A stretch of DNA of 10,330 bases from positions 1 to 10,330 of IMG/VR virus record IMGVR_UViG_2541047849_000005. The stretch is one strand, 5' to 3'. Origin of the DNA: a virus (Duplodnaviria; Heunggongvirae; Uroviricota; Caudoviricetes). Positions 1 to 10,330 of this stretch are shown piece after piece. The position numbers were made by a program, and so were the translations under genes. Each line of letters opens with the position of its first letter. Position 1 is the first letter of the stretch. The notes beneath the pieces are model-generated. The model saw nothing but the letters and a program-made list of their open reading frames with translations, made no database searches and was not told the DNA's origin.

Positions 1-861
1 ATGAGATTCAGCACCCCATTACGGTATCCTGGTGGTAAAGGTAAATTAACTAACTATCTATCAAAGATCATTATGATCAATGGCTTAGATGGTTGCGAAT
101 ATGTTGAGCCGTATGCTGGTGGTGCTGGAGTAGCCATTAATTTACTTTTGTCTGGGAAAGCATCACGTATACATTTAAACGATCTTAATAACGCCATTTT
201 TTGTTTTTGGCGGTCGATTCTAGAAGAAACTGATCAGTTTTGCCAATTAATTGAAAAAACTCCTGTGAATATGGATGAATGGTATAAGAATAAAAATATC
301 ATTAGTAATCAATGTGATTATTCCTCATTGGAAGTTGGATTCGCTACGTTTTTCCTTAATCGAACAAATCGGTCAGGAATTTTGTTAGGTGGTGTAATTG
401 GTGGTAAGGAACAAAATGGAAAATGGAAAATAGATGCTCGATTTAATAAGGTTGATTTAGTAAACCGTATTAAGGTAATAGCAGACCGTAAATCTGATAT
501 TTGTATCTATAACCAAGATGCTAAATCATTCTTGCAAAATACTGTAACTGGATTCCCATTAAAAACATTGCTTTATCTTGACCCTCCATATTATGTTAAA
601 GGAAAGGGCTTGTATCAAAACCATTATAGTCATGATGATCATGTCGAAATTGCTAATATTATAAAATCTAATTCAAAGCATCCATGGATTGTATCTTACG
701 ATAATACTGTTGAAATAAACAACATGTACACTGGTCTTAGAAAAATTGAGTACGGTATCAGCTATAGTGCTCAATCTAGGTACCAAGGGCCAGAAGTAAT
801 CTTTTTTTGTGATAGCATTTCTATTCCTGATGATATGGATCCTACAAGAGTCAAATTATAG
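1..861 (+). CDS. Dam-family (D12 class) N6-adenine DNA methyltransferase, 286 aa
   Basis: N-terminal AdoMet-binding region YPGGKGKL...VEPYAGGAGV (aa 9-44), FFLNRTNRSG block, catalytic DPPY at aa 194-197 (nt 580-591). Colinear with E. coli Dam motif order (WAGGK / VEPFVGAGS / LYLNRYGYNG / CDPPY) as recalled. Visibly AT-rich compared with the neighbouring int. ATG at nt 1, TAG at 859-861. Confidence 0.85.
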   Translation: MRFSTPLRYPGGKGKLTNYLSKIIMINGLDGCEYVEPYAGGAGVAINLLLSGKASRIHLNDLNNAIFCFWRSILEETDQFCQLIEKTPVNMDEWYKNKNIISNQCDYSSLEVGFATFFLNRTNRSGILLGGVIGGKEQNGKWKIDARFNKVDLVNRIKVIADRKSDICIYNQDAKSFLQNTVTGFPLKTLLYLDPPYYVKGKGLYQNHYSHDDHVEIANIIKSNSKHPWIVSYDNTVEINNMYTGLRKIEYGISYSAQSRYQGPEVIFFCDSISIPDDMDPTRVKL

Positions 862-3817: not shown

Positions 3818-4180
3818 TTAATGGCCTGCTGCGCGGAGTTTTCCGTCAGGTTCACCGGCAAGAGTCAGTAATTGTCCCTGGTCTTCCTGCAGAATAGTCA
3901 GGCGACCACCGCGATTGACATACATCGGCGTTTCGGTGGTGTCTTCTTCGGAAATTTTCCCGCGGTTAGTCGGGCGAACATATGAGAGTTTGTGTTTGAT
4001 TTTCACACGGTTCTCATCAAATGGTTCGATTTCCAGGTTGAGTGAGACCTTACCTTTGGTTTTCGTGTTCATCACACCGGAAGCGACTTCACTGAGAACT
4101 GCGCCGATTTTGGTTTCAAATACGCCGCCGTCCAGCTCCCCGATAAATGCCTGCACATCAGTACTGCGTTCGCTAGCCAT
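3818..4180 (-). CDS. Hypothetical phage early protein, 120 aa (positional equivalent of yfdP)
   Basis: ATG at complement 4178-4180 preceded by GAGGAG (ATGATGAGGAGCAGCAAAATG). Sequence beginning MASERSTDVQAFIGELDGGVFETKIG has normal composition. The ORF-track extension up to 4498 is Arg/Cys-rich and implausible. Confidence 0.65.
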   Translation of the reverse strand: MASERSTDVQAFIGELDGGVFETKIGAVLSEVASGVMNTKTKGKVSLNLEIEPFDENRVKIKHKLSYVRPTNRGKISEEDTTETPMYVNRGGRLTILQEDQGQLLTLAGEPDGKLRAAGH

Positions 4181-4324
4181 TTTGCTGCTCCTCATCATAT
4201 CGACCCTGCAAGGCCGATTAGTTTCTCCACAAAACAGAGAAGAACACCTGCGGTGGCAGCCGCCCGGATGGATTGGGTTATGAGCCCGTCGTCCGGTGAT
4301 GCTCTTCTCTGTTTTGTAAAAAGG

Positions 4325-4411
4325 ACGGTACCAGCCGGAAGCAAGGGTACAAACTGGTACCGCCAGGACTACACACAGCATAAAGTTGTGGTGCCGGGTG
4401 CCTCCCGGTGC
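4325..4411. repeat. Cluster of six GGT(A/G)CC motifs: 9-bp inverted repeat CGGTACCAG(4325-4333)/CTGGTACCG(4353-4361) plus three direct GGTGCC copies (4389-4394, 4396-4401, 4406-4411)
   Basis: Read directly from the sequence. Lies in a GC-rich non-coding island between divergently oriented gene blocks; could be operator or recombination-site remnants. Confidence 0.4.
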
Positions 4412-4617
4412 CTGGCGAAGGTTGCACACCAGACGGGTGGGTATCCACAGAAGGTCGACTGTCAGCCTCAACCTTAACCCGCGTGCGCTGAGCCGCATTC
4501 ACCACAACGCTAAGGATTCTCTCTGGTTGAAAATACTTAGCTGTTATGTGCCTGTCTTTTCACCACTTCAGGCTCGGTGGTATCCTTTTAAGCCCGTATA
4601 CATAAAAGGAAAATCAA

Positions 4618-4767
4618 ATGACTTTTGATGAAAAAGAACTTGATAATGCAATTAATAAAATCATCGTAACGTCGCTCTTTTCCTGTCTCAGCGACACTCA
4701 GCAGAAACAGTTCTACGAATCGGCTTTCAACATGATCGAGCGTTGTTGTTTCTGCGATGCCGACTAG
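4618..4767 (+). CDS. Small ORF, 49 aa (MTFDEKELDNAINKIIVTSLFSCLSDTQQKQFYESAFNMIERCCFCDAD), hypothetical; possibly the N-terminal stump of a deleted gene
   Basis: ATG at 4618 preceded by AAAGGAAAA 7-8 nt upstream; stop TAG at 4765-4767. Not in the supplied ORF track, presumably below its length cut-off. Overlaps the 5' end of the tape-measure reading frame in another frame. Confidence 0.3.
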   Translation: MTFDEKELDNAINKIIVTSLFSCLSDTQQKQFYESAFNMIERCCFCDAD

Positions 4768-6302
4768 TTACAACGGCTGATTTTCAGAACATGATGCAGA
4801 TGCTGGTGCGTCAGGGGATCCCGGCAGAAAACATTCTTGGCGGTGTGGGTAAAGCGACAGCTTATCTTGCGGTACAACTGAAAAAAACACCGGAAGCGGC
4901 TGCCGAGTTTGCCGCAAAGATGCAGGATGCTACCGGAACGGCGTCAGAAGACATGATGGGGCTGTTCGACACTATCCAGAAGGCGTTTTATCTGGGCGTT
5001 GACGATACCAACATGTTGTCCTTCTTCACTAAAACCAGTTCTGTTCTGAAGATGGTGAACAAGGACGGTCTTCAGGCTGCACAGAGCCTTGCCCCCATCA
5101 GCGTCATGATGGATCAGATGGGGATGAACGGGGAGTCGGCAGGTAATGCCCTGCGAAAAGTTATCCAGTCCGGATTAAGCGTTAAGAAAATCAGGGACGT
5201 CAATAAAATCATGGCCCGCCAGAAACTCGGGGTACAGCTCGATTTTACTGATGGCAAAGGGAGTTTTGGCGGTCTTGATAACATGTTCAGGCAACTGGCA
5301 AAGCTGCGAAAACTGACCGACGTTAAGCGAACCGGTGTACTTAAGGCAATATTTGGTGATGATGCCGAAACCCTTCAGGTGGTCAATGCTCTGATCGATA
5401 AAGGAAAGAATGGTTACGATCAGATCCAGCAGAAGATGCATAAACAGGCCAGCCTGAATAAACGTGTTCAGGCCCAGCTTGGTACGCTGTCCAACCTGTG
5501 GGAGGCAATGACGGGGACCGCAACTAACGGCCTTGCGGCTATTGGTGGCGCATTTTCTGGTGACGCCAAAAATATCACGCAATGGCTGGGGGAGTTAGGG
5601 GAAAAATTCACGAAGTTTGCGGATGAAAATCCCCGGGTTATTCGCGGCGTCGTCGGGCTTGCTGCCGGTCTTGCGATTCTGAAACTGGGATTGATGGGCG
5701 TGGGCAGTGCCATCAGTATCGTCAGCAGGATCATGTCGATGACGCCGATTGGCATGATTGCGACGGCGATTGCCCTGGCTGCGGGATTAATTATCACTAA
5801 CTGGGATGTTGTCGGACCTTATTTTAAGAAACTCTGGGAAACCATTAGTCCTTATTTTGAGGCTGGCTGGGAACTTCTGAAGAAGGTTTTTGCCTGGTCG
5901 CCGCTGGGGATGGTGATCAATAACTGGGGACCGGTTGTTAAGTGGTTTCAGGATATGTGGGATAAGCTGAAGCCGATTATTGAATGGTTTACCGACAGTT
6001 CCGGTGACACGGTCGATGCCATTAACTCGGCGCAGTGGGGCGCGGGTGCTTATGATGCTTATGAGACGGGAATACCGCCACGGGGATACACTCCTTATCC
6101 GGAGGTGGATCCGGCTCAGGCAAACAACGCCTCCGGTGCCACAGGCTCGAATCCCTTCATGATTAATAAAGTTACCGCGCCAAAAGTTGATGGTGAGATC
6201 AAGGTATCATTTATAAATATGCCACCAGGTATGCGGGTTACGGAAACACGCTCCAGTGGCATTGATATAAATCACGATGTTGGCTATACCCGATTTTGGT
6301 AG
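4743..6302 (+). CDS. Phage tail tape measure protein, C-terminal portion (probably a 5'-truncated remnant; pseudogene candidate)
   Basis: Internal hydrophobic stretch (VIRGVVGLAAGLAILKLGLMGVGSAISIV...IGMIATAIALAAGLIIT) followed by a Trp-periodic region (W every 9-11 residues, about nt 5797-5990), both typical of tape measure proteins. The frame is open from 4659, with a TTG at 4743 and the first ATG at 4791, and no convincing RBS. At about 519 aa it is shorter than the usual 700-900 aa, and the upstream sheath/tube/chaperone genes are absent. Confidence 0.7.
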   Translation: MLFLRCRLVTTADFQNMMQMLVRQGIPAENILGGVGKATAYLAVQLKKTPEAAAEFAAKMQDATGTASEDMMGLFDTIQKAFYLGVDDTNMLSFFTKTSSVLKMVNKDGLQAAQSLAPISVMMDQMGMNGESAGNALRKVIQSGLSVKKIRDVNKIMARQKLGVQLDFTDGKGSFGGLDNMFRQLAKLRKLTDVKRTGVLKAIFGDDAETLQVVNALIDKGKNGYDQIQQKMHKQASLNKRVQAQLGTLSNLWEAMTGTATNGLAAIGGAFSGDAKNITQWLGELGEKFTKFADENPRVIRGVVGLAAGLAILKLGLMGVGSAISIVSRIMSMTPIGMIATAIALAAGLIITNWDVVGPYFKKLWETISPYFEAGWELLKKVFAWSPLGMVINNWGPVVKWFQDMWDKLKPIIEWFTDSSGDTVDAINSAQWGAGAYDAYETGIPPRGYTPYPEVDPAQANNASGATGSNPFMINKVTAPKVDGEIKVSFINMPPGMRVTETRSSGIDINHDVGYTRFW

Positions 6303-6393: not shown

Positions 6394-6924
6394 ATGAAAG
6401 GCTATATCACAGCAAGTGTAATTCTTGGAGCAGCGGCTATTTTTTCATCTCTCATAATCTCTGGCAACATCTCCTTTAAAGATGAACATATTATTCAGTT
6501 ATCTGGAGGAGCCATAAAACTTGGTGATGTTTATAAAGAAAATAAATTGATAAGTGCAAAGATTATTTTTCCAGATAATCAGGGTGAACAGATTCTTGTT
6601 GTCGACGGCAATCCTGAAAACTTTAAGGAGGATTTTCAGGGGAAATTAAATAAAGTAATAAAAACTTTAAATGCGTCAAAGAAAAAAGATGAAGAGAAAG
6701 TTAGCCTGGATAATTTAAGTGTTATTGAAGAGTCTAAACTAGAGCTCGTTTCTGCGGTGCGTTACTCTGCTCAGTATGTTCCTATGTTTACTCTGACGCT
6801 GGACAAAAAAGAAATTACCATGCCTAAAAATACGGTAATATTTCCATTTGCCAGCGATGAAACAGCTAAGTATTTAAATGAACAACAGCAAAAGTATAAA
6901 GATTCGTTGTTTCTGACTCGCTAA
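6394..6924 (+). CDS. Moron-encoded membrane-anchored protein of unknown function, 176 aa (single N-terminal hydrophobic span, Lys/Glu-rich C-terminal domain)
   Basis: Clean ORF in an AT-rich insert. N-terminus MKGYITASVILGAAAIFSSLIISG is an approximately 20-residue hydrophobic signal-anchor; no cysteine, so not a lipoprotein. Flanked by its own promoter candidate and an intrinsic terminator. No family recognised. Confidence 0.8.
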   Translation: MKGYITASVILGAAAIFSSLIISGNISFKDEHIIQLSGGAIKLGDVYKENKLISAKIIFPDNQGEQILVVDGNPENFKEDFQGKLNKVIKTLNASKKKDEEKVSLDNLSVIEESKLELVSAVRYSAQYVPMFTLTLDKKEITMPKNTVIFPFASDETAKYLNEQQQKYKDSLFLTR

Positions 6925-10027: not shown

Positions 10028-10330
10028 ATGCATCGTATAGACACGAAAACCGCGCAGAAGGATAAGTTCGGCGCGGGTAAGAACGGTTTTACCCGTGGTA
10101 ACCCCCAGACCGGCACGCCTGCCACCGATCTGGATGATGACTACTTTGACATGTTGCAGGAGGAGCTTTGCAGCGTTGTGGAGGCATCCGGTGCCAGCCT
10201 GGAGAAGGGGCGGCATGACCAGCTGCTTACCGCGCTTCGTGCGCTGCTGTTAAGCCGCAAGAATCCGTTTGGCGATATCAAATCGGATGGCACGGTGAAA
10301 ACAGCTCTCGAAAACCTTGGTTTGGGAGAA
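10028..10330 (+). CDS. Side tail fibre protein, N-terminal part (partial; continues beyond the window)
   Basis: N-terminus [47 protein letters not shown] is the conserved baseplate-attachment N-terminus seen in Mu-type/e14-type tail fibres, as recalled. GGAG 7 nt upstream of the ATG at 10028. No stop codon before the window end. Confidence 0.75.

What the first reader, a model, noticed from the sequence alone, without database searches (positions are those of the whole stretch)
4200..4617. GC-rich non-coding island with clustered GGT(A/G)CC motifs between the divergent gene blocks
Seen in sequence: about 420 bp without a convincing gene. It is GC-rich enough that several spurious ORFs appear in multiple frames. 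It contains a 9-bp inverted repeat (CGGTACCAG...CTGGTACCG, 4325-4361), a third GGTAC at 4345-4349 and three direct GGTGCC copies at 4389-4411. Inference: this could be an operator array for a now-missing repressor, the promoter region driving the int/early-left operon, remnants of recombination sites, or a small RNA locus.
Basis: seen in the sequence. Interest (0 to 1): 0.4.

Follow-up and report, generated by a model that had tools for sequence, protein, structure and literature searches.

The report
Prophage small-RNA gene, terminator, structured leader
The GC-rich "empty" stretch is not an operator array or a dead gene: on the opposite strand it carries a prophage small-RNA gene with its terminator, related to the published sRNA-17 and to Rfam STnc100, followed by a highly conserved and apparently undescribed folded RNA leader in front of the phage's early-left genes.

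Summary
The motifs are real, each 1 nt to the right of the stated coordinates, and they are clustered. The window is a deleted SfV/e14-type lambdoid prophage, and the region is 99.8% identical to phage SfV.

All the signal lies on the minus strand, the yfdP-to-int sense.

1. **Small RNA (4508→4317, ~192 nt).** A 9-bp closing helix encloses a multibranch body. The three GGTGCC copies lie in the CCGGG/CCCGG hairpin and the closing strand.
   - It occupies the locus of sRNA-17 (193 nt, RACE and Northern, E. coli K1) and shares its ends, but the interior differs.
   - It hits Rfam STnc100 over the full model length but below threshold (41.2 bits against 47).
2. **Leader fold (4318→4224).** It has strong covariation, a folding z-score of −6.7, and an invariant loop with 14 nt identical to the initiator-tRNA anticodon stem-loop. 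It is found in at least 120 viral contigs and 23 Enterobacterales species. No Rfam family and no paper matches it.
3. **Small hairpin** with a conserved GCA loop just before the yfdP ribosome-binding site.

Operator, promoter-for-int, recombination-site and degraded-gene readings are not supported. The small RNA is a new allele of a known kind. The leader is the novel part, and its function is unknown.

The parts
3818..4180 (-). yfdP (120 aa), the first gene of the early-left block yfdP-yfdQ-yfdR-xis-int. Listed for context; it is the gene that the leader precedes.
   Evidence: PGAP annotates the identical locus as yfdP. It matches phrog_204. Neighbouring genes were identified with Pfam as DUF2303, YfbR-like, Exc and integrase.
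4188..4193 (-). Shine-Dalgarno sequence GAGGAG of yfdP. The ATG is at 4180-4178.
   Evidence: Read directly from the sequence.
4199..4218 (-). Hairpin P4 (AUCGGCCU-UGCA-GGGUCGAU), lying between the leader fold and the SD.
   Evidence: Present in the minimum-free-energy fold. In about 50 distinct homologues a hairpin sits at the same place with different stem sequences and a conserved loop: GGCA in 15, UGCA in 14, and GUGCAG(A)-type in about 10.
4224..4318 (-). Conserved structured leader, 'module c'.
- P1, the long stem: 4298-4318 pairs with 4224-4248.
- P2: 4292-4296 pairs with 4264-4268. It is capped by the invariant GACGGGCUCAUAACCCAAUCCA, with the CUCAUAA loop at 4278-4284.
- P3, a small variable hairpin: 4250-4263.
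   Evidence: - **Repeat and fold.** A 25-nt inverted repeat at 4229-4253/4293-4317. Minimum free energy -61.4 kcal/mol, z = -6.71.
- **Distribution and alignment.** At least 120 viral-contig loci; 25 distinct sequences were aligned.
- **Covariation.** 97.6% of cells are paired against 38-52% when the partners are slid. Nine pairs change on both sides. The covariation score is 0.194 against 0.108 in shuffles (0 of 500 reach it).
- **Strand.** The covariance model scores 123.9 bits on the minus strand and 39.7 bits on the plus strand.
- **tRNA resemblance.** 14 nt are identical to the metY initiator-tRNA anticodon stem-loop.
- **Rfam.** No family matches.
4317..4364 (-). Rho-independent terminator of the small RNA.
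- Stem: 4352-4364 pairs with 4324-4336.
- Loop: contains the third GGTAC.
- Tail: CUUUUUA at 4323-4317.
   Evidence: Present in the fold. In 41 of 45 distinct loci a hairpin of 8-21 predicted pairs (-8.6 to -32.7 kcal/mol) precedes the T-run, with at least 6 unrelated stem sequences. It corresponds to the terminator hairpin of the STnc100 model and to the RACE-mapped 3' end of sRNA-17.
4317..4508 (-). About 192-nt small-RNA gene, the SfV-type allele of sRNA-17 with an STnc100-like body.
- 9-bp closing helix: GUUGUGGUG (4508-4500) pairs with CACCACAAC (4393-4385).
- The multibranch interior includes the hairpin CCGGG-AGGCA-CCCGG (4408-4394).
- The three GGTGCC copies lie at 4390-4412.
   Evidence: - **Rfam.** RF02076 STnc100 match at 4538-4316 (-), 41.2 bits, E = 1.8e-7, covering model positions 1-206 of 206. 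The SfV, sal3 and ST64B-like copies score 39.5, 37.5 and 35.1 bits.
- **sRNA-17.** The alignment with sRNA-17 shares the first 15 nt, CACCACAAC and the terminator. Published evidence for sRNA-17: 193 nt by RACE and Northern (PMC7719688).
4509..4541 (-). 13-bp hairpin (GCUAAGUAUUUUC / GAGAAUCCUUAGC) abutting the 5' end of the small RNA. In other alleles a longer stem enclosing tRNA T-arm-like pieces occupies this position.
   Evidence: Inverted repeat I2. Allele comparison. Weak second hits of the covariance model at this position in L019 and L039.
4547..4581 (.). 35-nt block shared with lambda, P22 and many other lambdoid phages (94% identical to lambda 34394-34428). Its role is undetermined: possibly a promoter for the rightward gene, or an RNA hairpin/pseudoknot in the leftward transcript.
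   Evidence: Phage BLAST. In lambda the block lies 54-88 nt upstream of the rightward sieB ATG. A plus-strand terminator-like match occurs at 4562-4581.
4618..4767 (+). 49-aa ORF of unknown function on the opposite strand, at the position lambda gives to sieB. It marks the right-hand border of the region.
   Evidence: Matches phrog_3311 at E = 2.9e-32. Annotated as a hypothetical protein in some genomes.
4771..4772 (.). Deletion junction. Homology to SfV/e14-type prophages ends here and a truncated tape-measure gene follows. cI, cro, pL, and the replication, lysis and head genes are missing.
   Evidence: BLAST of the window against L001-L005. Pfam PhageMin_Tail match for 4743-6302.

Best explanation
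Positions 4181-4617 are non-coding DNA from the early-left control region of an SfV/e14-type lambdoid prophage. The information is carried on the minus strand, the same sense as yfdP through int, as a series of folded RNAs.

**1. A small RNA of about 192 nt (4508→4317).**
- It starts at a 9-bp, tRNA-acceptor-like closing helix (GUUGUGGUG/CACCACAAC) that encloses a multibranch body.
- It ends at a Rho-independent terminator.
- It is the SfV-type allele of sRNA-17 and a distant relative of STnc100/PasD.

**2. A 95-nt conserved leader fold.** It has a long stem, a hairpin with an invariant loop resembling the initiator-tRNA anticodon arm, and a variable hairpin.

**3. A small hairpin with a GCA loop.** It lies just before the yfdP ribosome-binding site.

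**Likely workings (inferred).**
- In a lysogen the small RNA is made and stops at its own terminator. That stop also keeps upstream transcription out of the yfdP-yfdQ-yfdR-xis-int block.
- The small RNA may additionally act in trans, as reported for sRNA-17.
- The leader fold acts in cis on whatever transcript passes the terminator, through stability, processing, translation or elongation control. Which of these applies is unknown.

**What is shown and what is inferred.**
- Shown: the non-coding nature of the region, the strand, the terminator, the covarying leader structure, and locus homology with sRNA-17.
- Inferred: expression of this allele, its 5' end, and every functional role.
For: **Context.**
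- Positions 4182-4617 are 99.8% identical to phage SfV, between orf32 (= yfdP) and orf33/cI.
- Flanking genes are identified.

**Small RNA.**
- Full-length STnc100 match on the minus strand, E = 1.8e-7. The match is reproduced in SfV and in two Salmonella homologues of 77-79% identity.
- The MFE folds of this allele and of sRNA-17 have the same architecture. Both show a 9-bp closing helix, a multibranch body and a 13-14 bp terminator, at 192 against 193 nt. They share 15 nt at the 5' end and the terminator.
- For sRNA-17, RACE and Northern mapping show a 193-nt RNA in a lysogen. Replacing it raised yfdP by 2^6.6 and yfdR by 2^4.1 (PMC7719688).
- The closing helix shows compensatory changes: GUUGUGAC/GUCACAAC in L049 and L134.

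**Terminator.** It is conserved in structure but not in sequence in 41 of 45 distinct loci.

**Leader.**
- The folding z-score is -6.71.
- The strand asymmetry is 124 against 40 bits, and G.U pairs are present.
- The core occurs in 23 species of Enterobacterales, upstream of either yfdP-like or RdgC-like first genes.

**Non-coding nature.**
- Length differences among relatives are not multiples of 3.
- The plus-strand ORF that starts at the conserved ATG ends after 11-80 aa and is unrelated beyond about 14 residues.
- No Pfam match was found.
Against: - No expression data exist for this allele. The prophage is defective and has lost pL. The consensus scan found no minus-strand promoter.
- The STnc100 score is below Rfam's gathering threshold (41.2 against 47). 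The folding z-score of the small RNA is only -1.6.
- Within the SfV-type allele there is too little divergence to show covariation in the interior helices.
- The interior is not alignable with sRNA-17, so trans targets cannot be carried over.
- The rise in yfdP after sRNA-17 replacement could come from read-through out of the resistance cassette rather than from loss of the terminator.
- The sRNA-17 RACE did not distinguish primary from processed 5' ends.
- PGAP and several phage annotations place hypothetical ORFs or a 'frameshifted' pseudogene here.
Confidence: 0.8

Rival explanations
1. The region is purely a cis-acting leader of the pL (early-left) transcript, not an independent small-RNA gene. 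The folded domains would be processing, stability or antitermination signals: RNase III or RNase P sites, or a put-like RNA that modifies RNA polymerase. The ~190-nt species would then be a processing or termination by-product.
For: - In SfV the region lies about 0.9 kb downstream of a pL-like promoter and is in the same sense as it.
- SfV orf33, in the position of N, has no arginine-rich N-like motif. Some other mechanism must therefore carry polymerase through this strong terminator to reach xis and int.
- The sRNA-17 5' end falls exactly at the first base of an acceptor-like helix. In other alleles that helix is abutted by a long stem, which fits processing.
- In L110 the same slot holds a sequence that passes the Rfam tRNA threshold (43.9 against 29 bits).
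- The inner part of the leader consists of two adjacent stem-loops, as described for put RNAs (PMC9378689).
Against: - sRNA-17 accumulates in a lysogen, where pL should be repressed. It is regulated by ArcA and by growth phase.
- There is no sequence or covariance-model similarity to the phage HK022 DNA examined (positions 20000-40751, which span its early region, where putL and putR lie).
- The leader lies downstream of the terminator, so it cannot suppress that terminator.
Confidence: 0.2
2. The GGTAC/GGTGCC motifs are an operator array or other protein-binding DNA sites, for the repressor that was lost with the deletion or for another regulator.
For: - The motifs are clustered beyond chance.
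- TGTACCC occurs 6 times in the SfV locus against 0.7 expected. It is found at the pL-like promoter, in the annotated cI-cro operator region and inside cI. One further copy lies in the terminator loop, which is window GGGTACA at 4345-4351.
- ArcA-P shifted a 300-bp fragment upstream of sRNA-17 in the related allele.
Against: - In relatives the stem sequences are replaced wholesale (GCGGCAUC, GUCGGCGUCC, CUGGCGG, UGCCCAUC and others), while pairing and the T-run are kept.
- The loop heptamer is not conserved. It reads TGTACAC in mEp460 and cdtI and is absent elsewhere, and it does not follow immunity type.
- The half-site spacing and orientation differ from the SfV operator TTGTACC-N5-GGTACAA.
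- The GGTGCC copies match the STnc100 model's conserved CACCGGGAGGCACCCGGCACCA segment identically.
Confidence: 0.05
3. The region is a degraded protein-coding gene, as in PGAP's 'frameshifted hypothetical protein', or it holds small real genes on the plus strand (phrog_3651-type).
For: - PGAP annotates 4195-4505 (-) as a frameshifted pseudogene.
- Several phage records call ORFs here.
- PHROGs families match translations of the region, phrog_3651 at E = 8e-50 and phrog_33599 at 1e-15.
Against: - Those families are of unknown function. They could have arisen from gene calls on this well-conserved DNA.
- No Pfam match was found.
- Across genera the plus-strand ORF ends after 11-80 aa and diverges completely after about 14 residues.
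- Indels of 1, 2, 3, 4 and 25 nt occur among relatives.
- Substitutions come as compensatory pairs.
- The 226-aa extended yfdP reading has no support upstream of the SD and ATG at 4180.
Confidence: 0.03
4. The region holds decayed tRNA-gene relics carried along by recombination, with no present function.
For: - The closing helix is acceptor-stem-like, and the neighbouring CCGGG-AGGCA-CCCGG hairpin sits where a T-arm would sit.
- T-arm fragments (GGTTCGATTCC) lie upstream in the Salmonella and Klebsiella alleles.
- L110 carries a tRNA-scoring sequence in the same slot.
- The leader loop has 14 nt identical to the initiator-tRNA anticodon arm.
- The Klebsiella late-region version follows tRNA-Arg and ends in NCCA.
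Against: - The loop is invariant and the stems covary across at least 14 genera, which indicates purifying selection.
- sRNA-17 is expressed, and deleting it gives phenotypes.
- The region matches in 2864 of 5426 complete E. coli genomes.
Confidence: 0.05

Closest known systems
sRNA-17 of E. coli K1 RS218, in an mEp460-like prophage (Sun et al. 2020, PMC7719688)
   Same: - Same locus and strand, between the immunity region and yfdP.
- Same length class, 192 against 193 nt.
- Identical first 15 nt (GUUGUGGUGAAUGCG) and the same CACCACAAC closing strand.
- Nearly identical terminator.
- Same predicted architecture.
   Different: - About 110 nt of the interior cannot be aligned, so any seed or target region differs.
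- sRNA-17 has no Rfam hit (the mEp460/Stx2c-type loci L012 and L137; also stated by the authors), whereas this allele hits STnc100.
- The upstream sequence, where the authors place the predicted ArcA site, also differs.
- In the authors' terms this allele would be a 'degenerative sRNA-17'.
Rfam RF02076 STnc100, with its structural relative PasD (bioRxiv 10.64898/2026.05.13.724894)
   Same: - Prophage-borne RNA of about 200 nt.
- UGGUGAAU...CACCGGGAGGCACCCGGCACCA closing region.
- Five internal hairpins and a terminal intrinsic terminator.
- The alignment covers the whole model.
   Different: - The score is below the gathering threshold (41.2 against 47 bits).
- Canonical copies lie in the late region, downstream of Q, stx or tRNAs (L015 scores 81.2 bits). 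This one lies in the early-left region.
- The function of STnc100 is itself unknown.
Lambda pL operon control region (nutL-N-tL1; RNase III site in the N leader)
   Same: - A leftward early operon with a long structured untranslated stretch and a terminator that must be passed to reach xis and int.
- A 35-nt block is shared with lambda and P22 at the equivalent map position.
   Different: - No N-like protein and no boxA/boxB were recognised.
- The folded elements have no lambda counterpart.
HK022 put antiterminator RNAs (PMC9378689)
   Same: A cis-encoded folded RNA in the early operon of an N-less lambdoid phage. The inner part of the leader is two adjacent stem-loops of about 50-75 nt.
   Different: - No sequence or covariance-model similarity to the HK022 DNA examined (positions 20000-40751).
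- It is enclosed in a 19-bp outer stem.
- It lies after, not before, the nearest terminator.
- Activity has not been tested.
tRNA anticodon-arm mimics in mRNA leaders, such as the E. coli thrS operator (established knowledge, not tested here)
   Same: A 5' leader hairpin that reproduces a tRNA anticodon stem-loop. Here 14 of 14 nt match the initiator tRNA, including the three G-C pairs and the CUCAUAA loop.
   Different: No partner protein is known. The element also occurs outside 5' leaders, in the Klebsiella late-region version after tRNA-Arg that ends in NCCA.

Membership tests
Rfam RF02076 STnc100 | Bit score at or above the curated gathering threshold (47 bits) | tested here: not met
   41.2 bits in the window. 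39.5, 37.5 and 35.1 bits in the SfV, sal3 and ST64B-like homologues. A canonical copy in L015 scores 81.2 bits.
Rfam RF02076 STnc100 | Full-length match to the consensus structure, including the closing helix, the CCGGG/CCCGG hairpin and the 3' terminator | tested here: met
   Model positions 1-206 of 206 are aligned at E = 1.8e-7. The CACCGGGAGGCACCCGGCACCA segment is identical to the consensus.
Rfam RF02076 STnc100 | Usual genomic context: the late region of lambdoid prophages, downstream of Q, stx or tRNAs | tested here: not met
   This copy lies in the early-left region upstream of yfdP. The usual context is described and seen in L015.
sRNA-17 (PMC7719688) | Same locus and strand in an SfV/mEp460-type prophage, immediately upstream of yfdP | tested here: met
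   Locus comparisons. The sRNA-17 sequence from the paper's supplement maps to the mEp460 element.
sRNA-17 (PMC7719688) | Sequence homology over the whole 193 nt | tested here: not met
   Only the first 15 nt, CACCACAAC and the terminator (about 70 nt in all) align. The interior differs.
sRNA-17 (PMC7719688) | Expressed as a discrete RNA of about 190 nt | not testable with these tools
   Northern and RACE data exist only for the mEp460-type allele.
Rho-independent terminator | G+C-rich hairpin followed directly by a U-run on the transcribed strand | tested here: met
   A 13-14 bp stem, -19.7 kcal/mol, then CUUUUUA.
Rho-independent terminator | Structure conserved while sequence varies among homologues | tested here: met
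   41 of 45 distinct loci have a hairpin and a T-run, with at least 6 unrelated stem sequences.
Repressor operator array | Motif sequence and spacing conserved in relatives and matching the phage's known operators | tested here: not met
   The stems are replaced by other sequences in relatives. The arrangement differs from the SfV operator TTGTACC-N5-GGTACAA. There is a single TGTACCC in the terminator loop.
tRNA | Detected by tRNA finders (ARAGORN, or Rfam RF00005 at 29 bits or more) | tested here: not met
   No tRNA was found in the window or in 22 class-1 loci. The L110 allele alone scores 43.9 bits with RF00005.
HK022 put RNA | Sequence or structure similarity to putL or putR | tested here: not met
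   blastn-short against HK022 positions 20000-40751 gave only chance 10-13-mers. The leader covariance model gave no hit there. Antitermination activity cannot be tested here.
Protein-coding gene or pseudogene | Conserved reading frame across divergent homologues | tested here: not met
   ORF length ranges from 11 to 80 aa, and only the first ~14 residues are conserved. Indels are not multiples of 3. No Pfam match was found.

The most novel reading that the evidence does not exclude
The 95-nt leader (4224-4318), together with the GCA-loop hairpin, is a previously undescribed and widely conserved phage RNA whose invariant loop copies the anticodon stem-loop of the initiator tRNA.

It would act through that mimicry in one of two ways:
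- As a decoy or sensor for a factor that recognises the tRNA-fMet anticodon arm, for example an anticodon nuclease of the VapC type, MetRS, or IF3 with the 30S P site.
- As a protein-independent modifier of the transcribing polymerase.

In that way it would control or protect expression of the phage's first early-left genes. The Klebsiella late-region form (tRNA-Asn, tRNA-Arg, then this element ending in NCCA) would be the free, tRNA-like version of the same device.
Probability: 0.15. Interest if true: 0.8.

Novelty: new member of a known kind. Interest (0 to 1): 0.45.

Why it matters
**Annotation.**
- Part or all of this DNA matches in more than half of complete E. coli genomes (2864 of 5426). 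It is currently annotated inconsistently, as nothing, as hypothetical ORFs or as a frameshifted pseudogene.
- Reading it as a small-RNA gene with a terminator corrects those annotations.

**Family link.** It ties sRNA-17, which has reported effects on E. coli K1 blood survival and meningitis, to the STnc100/PasD group. The locus emerges as a cassette with fixed ends (an acceptor-like helix and a terminator) and exchangeable interiors.

**Prophage regulation.** The terminator is a likely gate for yfdP-xis-int expression, which bears on prophage stability and excision.

**The leader fold.** It offers a cleanly covarying new RNA motif with an exact initiator-tRNA anticodon-arm copy. It is conserved across Enterobacterales prophages in two genomic contexts, and is a concrete, testable candidate for a new cis-regulatory or anti-defence RNA.

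Tried and rejected
- **Rfam at gathering thresholds** on the whole window found nothing. The STnc100 lead appeared only with the E-value scan of the sub-region.
- **tRNA search.** ARAGORN found no tRNA or tmRNA in the window or in 22 related loci.
- **Promoter and terminator scan.** It found no minus-strand promoter. It missed the real terminator because the loop is longer than the scan allows.
- **E. coli K-12.** CPS-53 was examined as a possible reference, but homology stops at 4199, so K-12 lacks the element.
- **HK022 put RNAs.** Considered for the leader, but there is no sequence or model similarity. The put sequence could not be read from the paper text.
- **svsR (PMC12803456).** A prophage small RNA of an NC-SV lambdoid phage. 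It lies at the 3' end of cI and is unrelated to this locus.
- **RS218 chromosome.** It is not in the E. coli collection. mEp460 and the paper's supplement were used instead.
- **Interior-helix covariation in the small RNA.** This failed for lack of divergence within the SfV-type allele.
- **Literature search for the leader loop sequence** found nothing.
- **Coding readings.** The plus-strand ORF and the PGAP pseudogene were tested and rejected.
- **Not used.** The expensive protein-homology searches and structure prediction, because no credible protein is involved.
Full report
**Observation.**
- CGGTACCAG (4326-4334) and CTGGTACCG (4354-4362) are perfectly complementary.
- A third GGTAC lies at 4346-4350. 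GGTGCC occurs at 4390-4395, 4397-4402 and 4407-4412.
- GGTRCC occurs 17 times in the window against 7.4 +/- 3.2 in shuffles (0 of 200 reach 17). Seven of the matches, from 5 sites, fall within 86 bp.
- G+C peaks at 57.7% for 4201-4500.
- ORFs of 49-80 aa overlap one another in several frames on both strands.

**Where the window comes from.**
- The segment 4150-4650 matches 2864 of 5426 complete E. coli genomes. In the identical loci the left neighbours are yfdP, yfdQ, yfdR, xisE and intE beside icd, which is an e14/SfV-type lambdoid prophage. Pfam confirms the integrase, excisionase, DUF2303 and YfbR-like proteins.
- Positions 4182-4617 are 99.8% identical to phage SfV, between orf32 (= yfdP) and orf33/cI.
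- Homology to SfV and its relatives runs to 4771 and then stops. A truncated tape-measure gene follows. This prophage has therefore lost cI, cro, pL, and its replication, lysis and head genes, and the 'divergent' layout is a deletion scar.
- E. coli K-12 CPS-53 shares yfdP through yfdR, but its homology ends at 4199, so K-12 lacks the element.
- The true yfdP start is ATG at 4180-4178 with GAGGAG at 4193-4188.

**A small-RNA gene on the minus strand.**
- At gathering thresholds Rfam reports nothing. An E-value scan of 4100-4800 gives a full-length match (model 1-206 of 206) to RF02076 STnc100 at 4538-4316 on the minus strand. The score is 41.2 bits (threshold 47) and E = 1.8e-7.
- SfV itself and two Salmonella phage homologues of only 77-79% identity give the same sub-threshold match, at 39.5, 37.5 and 35.1 bits.
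- In that alignment and in the MFE fold, GUUGUGGUG (4508-4500) pairs with CACCACAAC (4393-4385) around a five-hairpin body.
- The three GGTGCC copies lie in the hairpin CCGGG-AGGCA-CCCGG and the 3' strand of the closing helix.
That is a Rho-independent terminator.

**Link to a published RNA.**
- Sun et al. (PMC7719688) mapped sRNA-17 by RACE and Northern. It is a 193-nt RNA in an mEp460-like prophage of E. coli K1 RS218. It is repressed by ArcA-P and rises in stationary phase.
- Replacing it with a resistance cassette raised yfdP by 2^6.6 and yfdR by 2^4.1.
- Their supplementary alignment shows the sequence. It is the element at this same locus in mEp460 and Stx2c-type phages.
- The window allele (192 nt) shares the first 15 nt, the CACCACAAC strand and the terminator with sRNA-17, and folds into the same architecture. 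About 110 nt of the interior are unrelated.
- The authors found no Rfam relative. Consistent with that, the mEp460/Stx2c-type loci give no STnc100 hit. Only the SfV-type interior resembles STnc100.
- STnc100 and its structural relative PasD are prophage small RNAs normally found in the late region. Their function is unknown. A canonical copy in Klebsiella phage 2 LV-2017 scores 81.2 bits.

**A cassette with fixed ends.**
- Among 119 related loci, about 90 keep the closing-helix strands, but at least six unrelated interiors occur.
- L049 and L134 carry GUUGUGAC/GUCACAAC, a doubly compensated closing helix.
- L128 is a recombinant with an SfV-type body and an mEp460-type tail.
- In L110 the slot holds a sequence that passes the Rfam tRNA threshold (43.9 against 29 bits), with the same acceptor strands GUUGUGG/CCACAAC.
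- tRNA T-arm fragments lie just upstream in the Salmonella and Klebsiella alleles. The closing helix therefore looks like a tRNA acceptor stem.
- The RACE 5' end of sRNA-17 at its first base is what RNase P processing would give. This is an inference, because the RACE did not separate primary from processed ends.
- The terminator is conserved as a structure, not as a sequence. In 41 of 45 distinct loci a hairpin of 8-21 predicted pairs precedes the T-run, built from at least six different stems.

**A conserved leader fold.**
- The best-conserved part of the region lies downstream of the terminator.
- An exact-pattern scan with its core found at least 120 viral contigs and 23 species representatives. 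The genera are Escherichia, Shigella, Citrobacter, Enterobacter, Kosakonia, Leclercia, Phytobacter, Klebsiella, Raoultella, Buttiauxella, Pseudescherichia, Pseudocitrobacter, Mixta and Erwinia.
- On 25 distinct sequences, RNAalifold and explicit pair counting give the following:
  - a 19-bp outer stem P1;
  - a hairpin P2 capped by the invariant GACGGGCUCAUAACCCAAUCCA;
  - a variable hairpin P3;
  - 97.6% of cells paired, against 38-52% when the partners are slid;
  - nine pairs with changes on both sides, for example GC:14/CG:11, AU:21/GC:4 and CG:17/AU:5;
  - a covariation score of 0.194 against 0.108 in shuffles (0 of 500 reach it).
- G.U pairs, and a covariance model that scores 124 bits on the minus strand against 40 on the plus strand, fix the functional strand.
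- The window copy folds at -61.4 kcal/mol with z = -6.7.
- Fourteen nucleotides of the loop region (CGGGCUCAUAACCC) are identical to the anticodon stem-loop of the initiator tRNA gene metY, including its three G-C pairs.
- A further hairpin (4199-4218) lies just before the SD. Its stems vary and its loop is conserved as GGCA, UGCA or GUGCAG.
- The first gene downstream is yfdP-like or, in some species, RdgC-like. The element therefore goes with the operon start rather than with one particular gene.
- A second form occurs in the late region of Klebsiella phages: Q, then (in 2 LV-2017) STnc100, then tRNA-Asn, tRNA-Arg and a 6-nt spacer. The element follows, closed by a 6-bp stem and ending in NCCA.
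- No Rfam family and no paper in the library matches it.

**Not coding, not an operator.**
- Relatives differ in length by 1, 2, 3, 4 and 25 nt.
- The plus-strand ORF that starts at the conserved ATG ends after 11-80 aa and shares only about 14 residues.
- Pfam finds nothing. PHROGs families of unknown function do match; they may simply reflect gene calls on conserved DNA, as does PGAP's 'frameshifted' pseudogene.
- For the operator reading, the one point in favour is that TGTACCC is enriched near the SfV operators (6 against 0.7 expected) and occurs once in the terminator loop.
- That loop base pattern is not conserved. The arrangement differs from TTGTACC-N5-GGTACAA. The stems behave as RNA.
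- SfV's pL-like promoter (TTGACA-17-TAATGT) lies next to cI, in DNA deleted here.
- SfV orf33, at the position of N, is not N-like. How polymerase passes the terminator during lytic growth remains open.

**The right-hand end.**
- Positions 4547-4581 form a 35-nt block shared with lambda (34394-34428), P22 and many other phages. In lambda it lies 54-88 nt upstream of the rightward sieB gene.
- Here the 49-aa ORF at 4618-4767 (phrog_3311) takes the place of sieB. The block may be a promoter for that gene, or an RNA hairpin or pseudoknot. This was not resolved.

**Verdict.**
- The finding is a real, non-coding, structured-RNA locus read from the minus strand.
- The small RNA with its terminator is a new allele of a known kind (sRNA-17, STnc100-like). 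Membership of STnc100 by Rfam's own criterion is not met.
- The leader fold is the part that appears new. Its function is unknown, and the readings offered (processing or stability signal, translation control, polymerase modification, tRNA-fMet mimic or decoy) are inferences.
- No expression data exist for this allele, and this prophage copy is defective.

Noticed in passing
window 4771-4772; 4743-6302: Deletion junction. SfV/e14-type homology ends at 4771 and is fused to the C-terminal part of a tape-measure gene (Pfam PhageMin_Tail). The prophage lacks cI, cro, pL, and its replication, lysis and head genes, but keeps int and xis and Mu-like tail/baseplate genes (DNA_circ_N, GP46).
   Followed up: partly
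window 1-861: An AT-rich ORF (31-36% G+C) encoding a D12-class N6-adenine DNA methyltransferase lies next to intE. In the otherwise identical locus of strain WP7-S17-ESBL-04 this position holds an AAA ATPase and a hypothetical gene, so this is a variable cargo slot beside the integrase.
   Followed up: no
window 6394-6924: A 176-aa ORF in a 32-39% G+C island between the tape-measure fragment and the DNA-circulation gene. It has no Pfam match and looks like a moron insertion.
   Followed up: no
window 4547-4581; lambda 34394-34428 (L007 1301-1335): A 35-nt block, 94% identical in lambda, P22, HK140 and many Salmonella and E. coli phages, always just upstream of the rightward gene in the sieB position. 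CCAC/GUGG and GCCUG/CAGGC could form a pseudoknot in the leftward RNA. On the plus strand TGGTATCCT resembles an extended -10 element.
   Followed up: partly
L014 2509-2574, L015 2509-2574, and about 11 further viral contigs (e.g. L028, L031, L052): A late-region form of the leader element in Klebsiella-type phages. The order is tRNA-Asn, tRNA-Arg and a 6-nt spacer. The element then follows: GGCCUG, CCUGAUG, ACGGGCUCAUAAUCCAAUC, CAUCAGG, a hairpin, CAGGCC and finally (A/G)CCA. It looks like a D-arm-less tRNA-like RNA that ARAGORN does not call.
   Followed up: partly
L110 1077-1203 (-): In this viral contig the slot of the small RNA holds a sequence that scores 43.9 bits with the Rfam tRNA model. 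It has D-arm and T-arm consensus sequences, a ~57-nt insertion, and the same GUUGUGG/CCACAAC acceptor strands as the small RNA. ARAGORN misses it.
   Followed up: partly
L003 (SfV) 5164, 5996, 6016, 6372, 6448, 6771: TGTACCC occurs 6 times in 10.4 kb against 0.7 expected. It is found at the pL-like promoter, inside cI, in the annotated cI-cro operator region, and once in the terminator loop of the small RNA. It is probably the SfV repressor half-site; the meaning of the loop copy is unclear.
   Followed up: partly
L003 7986-8174; L012 125-313; L009 21-97; L013 26-102: SfV and its relatives carry adjacent isrK and C4-antisense RNA matches above the Rfam thresholds, inside the early-right region (SfV orf37, an antirepressor-like gene). 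This is a P1-type immI module. It is absent from the window because of the deletion.
   Followed up: no
L128 (viral contig), small-RNA locus: A recombinant allele with the SfV-type (STnc100-like) body joined at CACCACAAC to the mEp460/sRNA-17-type tail. This shows exchange of cassette parts at the conserved helix strands.
   Followed up: no
L019 2795-2948, L039 4385-4540; upstream parts of L008, L011, L020, L053, L093: Upstream of the small RNA, many alleles have a second long stem (CAACGAxGAGAGCAUU ... AGUGCUCUCxxCGUUG) that encloses tRNA T-arm-like hairpins. It resembles the leader's outer stem (weak covariance-model hits of 21 bits). The window has only a 13-bp hairpin there (4509-4541).
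   Followed up: partly
window 10090-10330: 97.5% identical to E. coli K-12 CPS-53 near yfdL/yfdM (L006 3884-4124, opposite strand). This is a second patch shared with CPS-53, far from the yfdP block.
   Followed up: no
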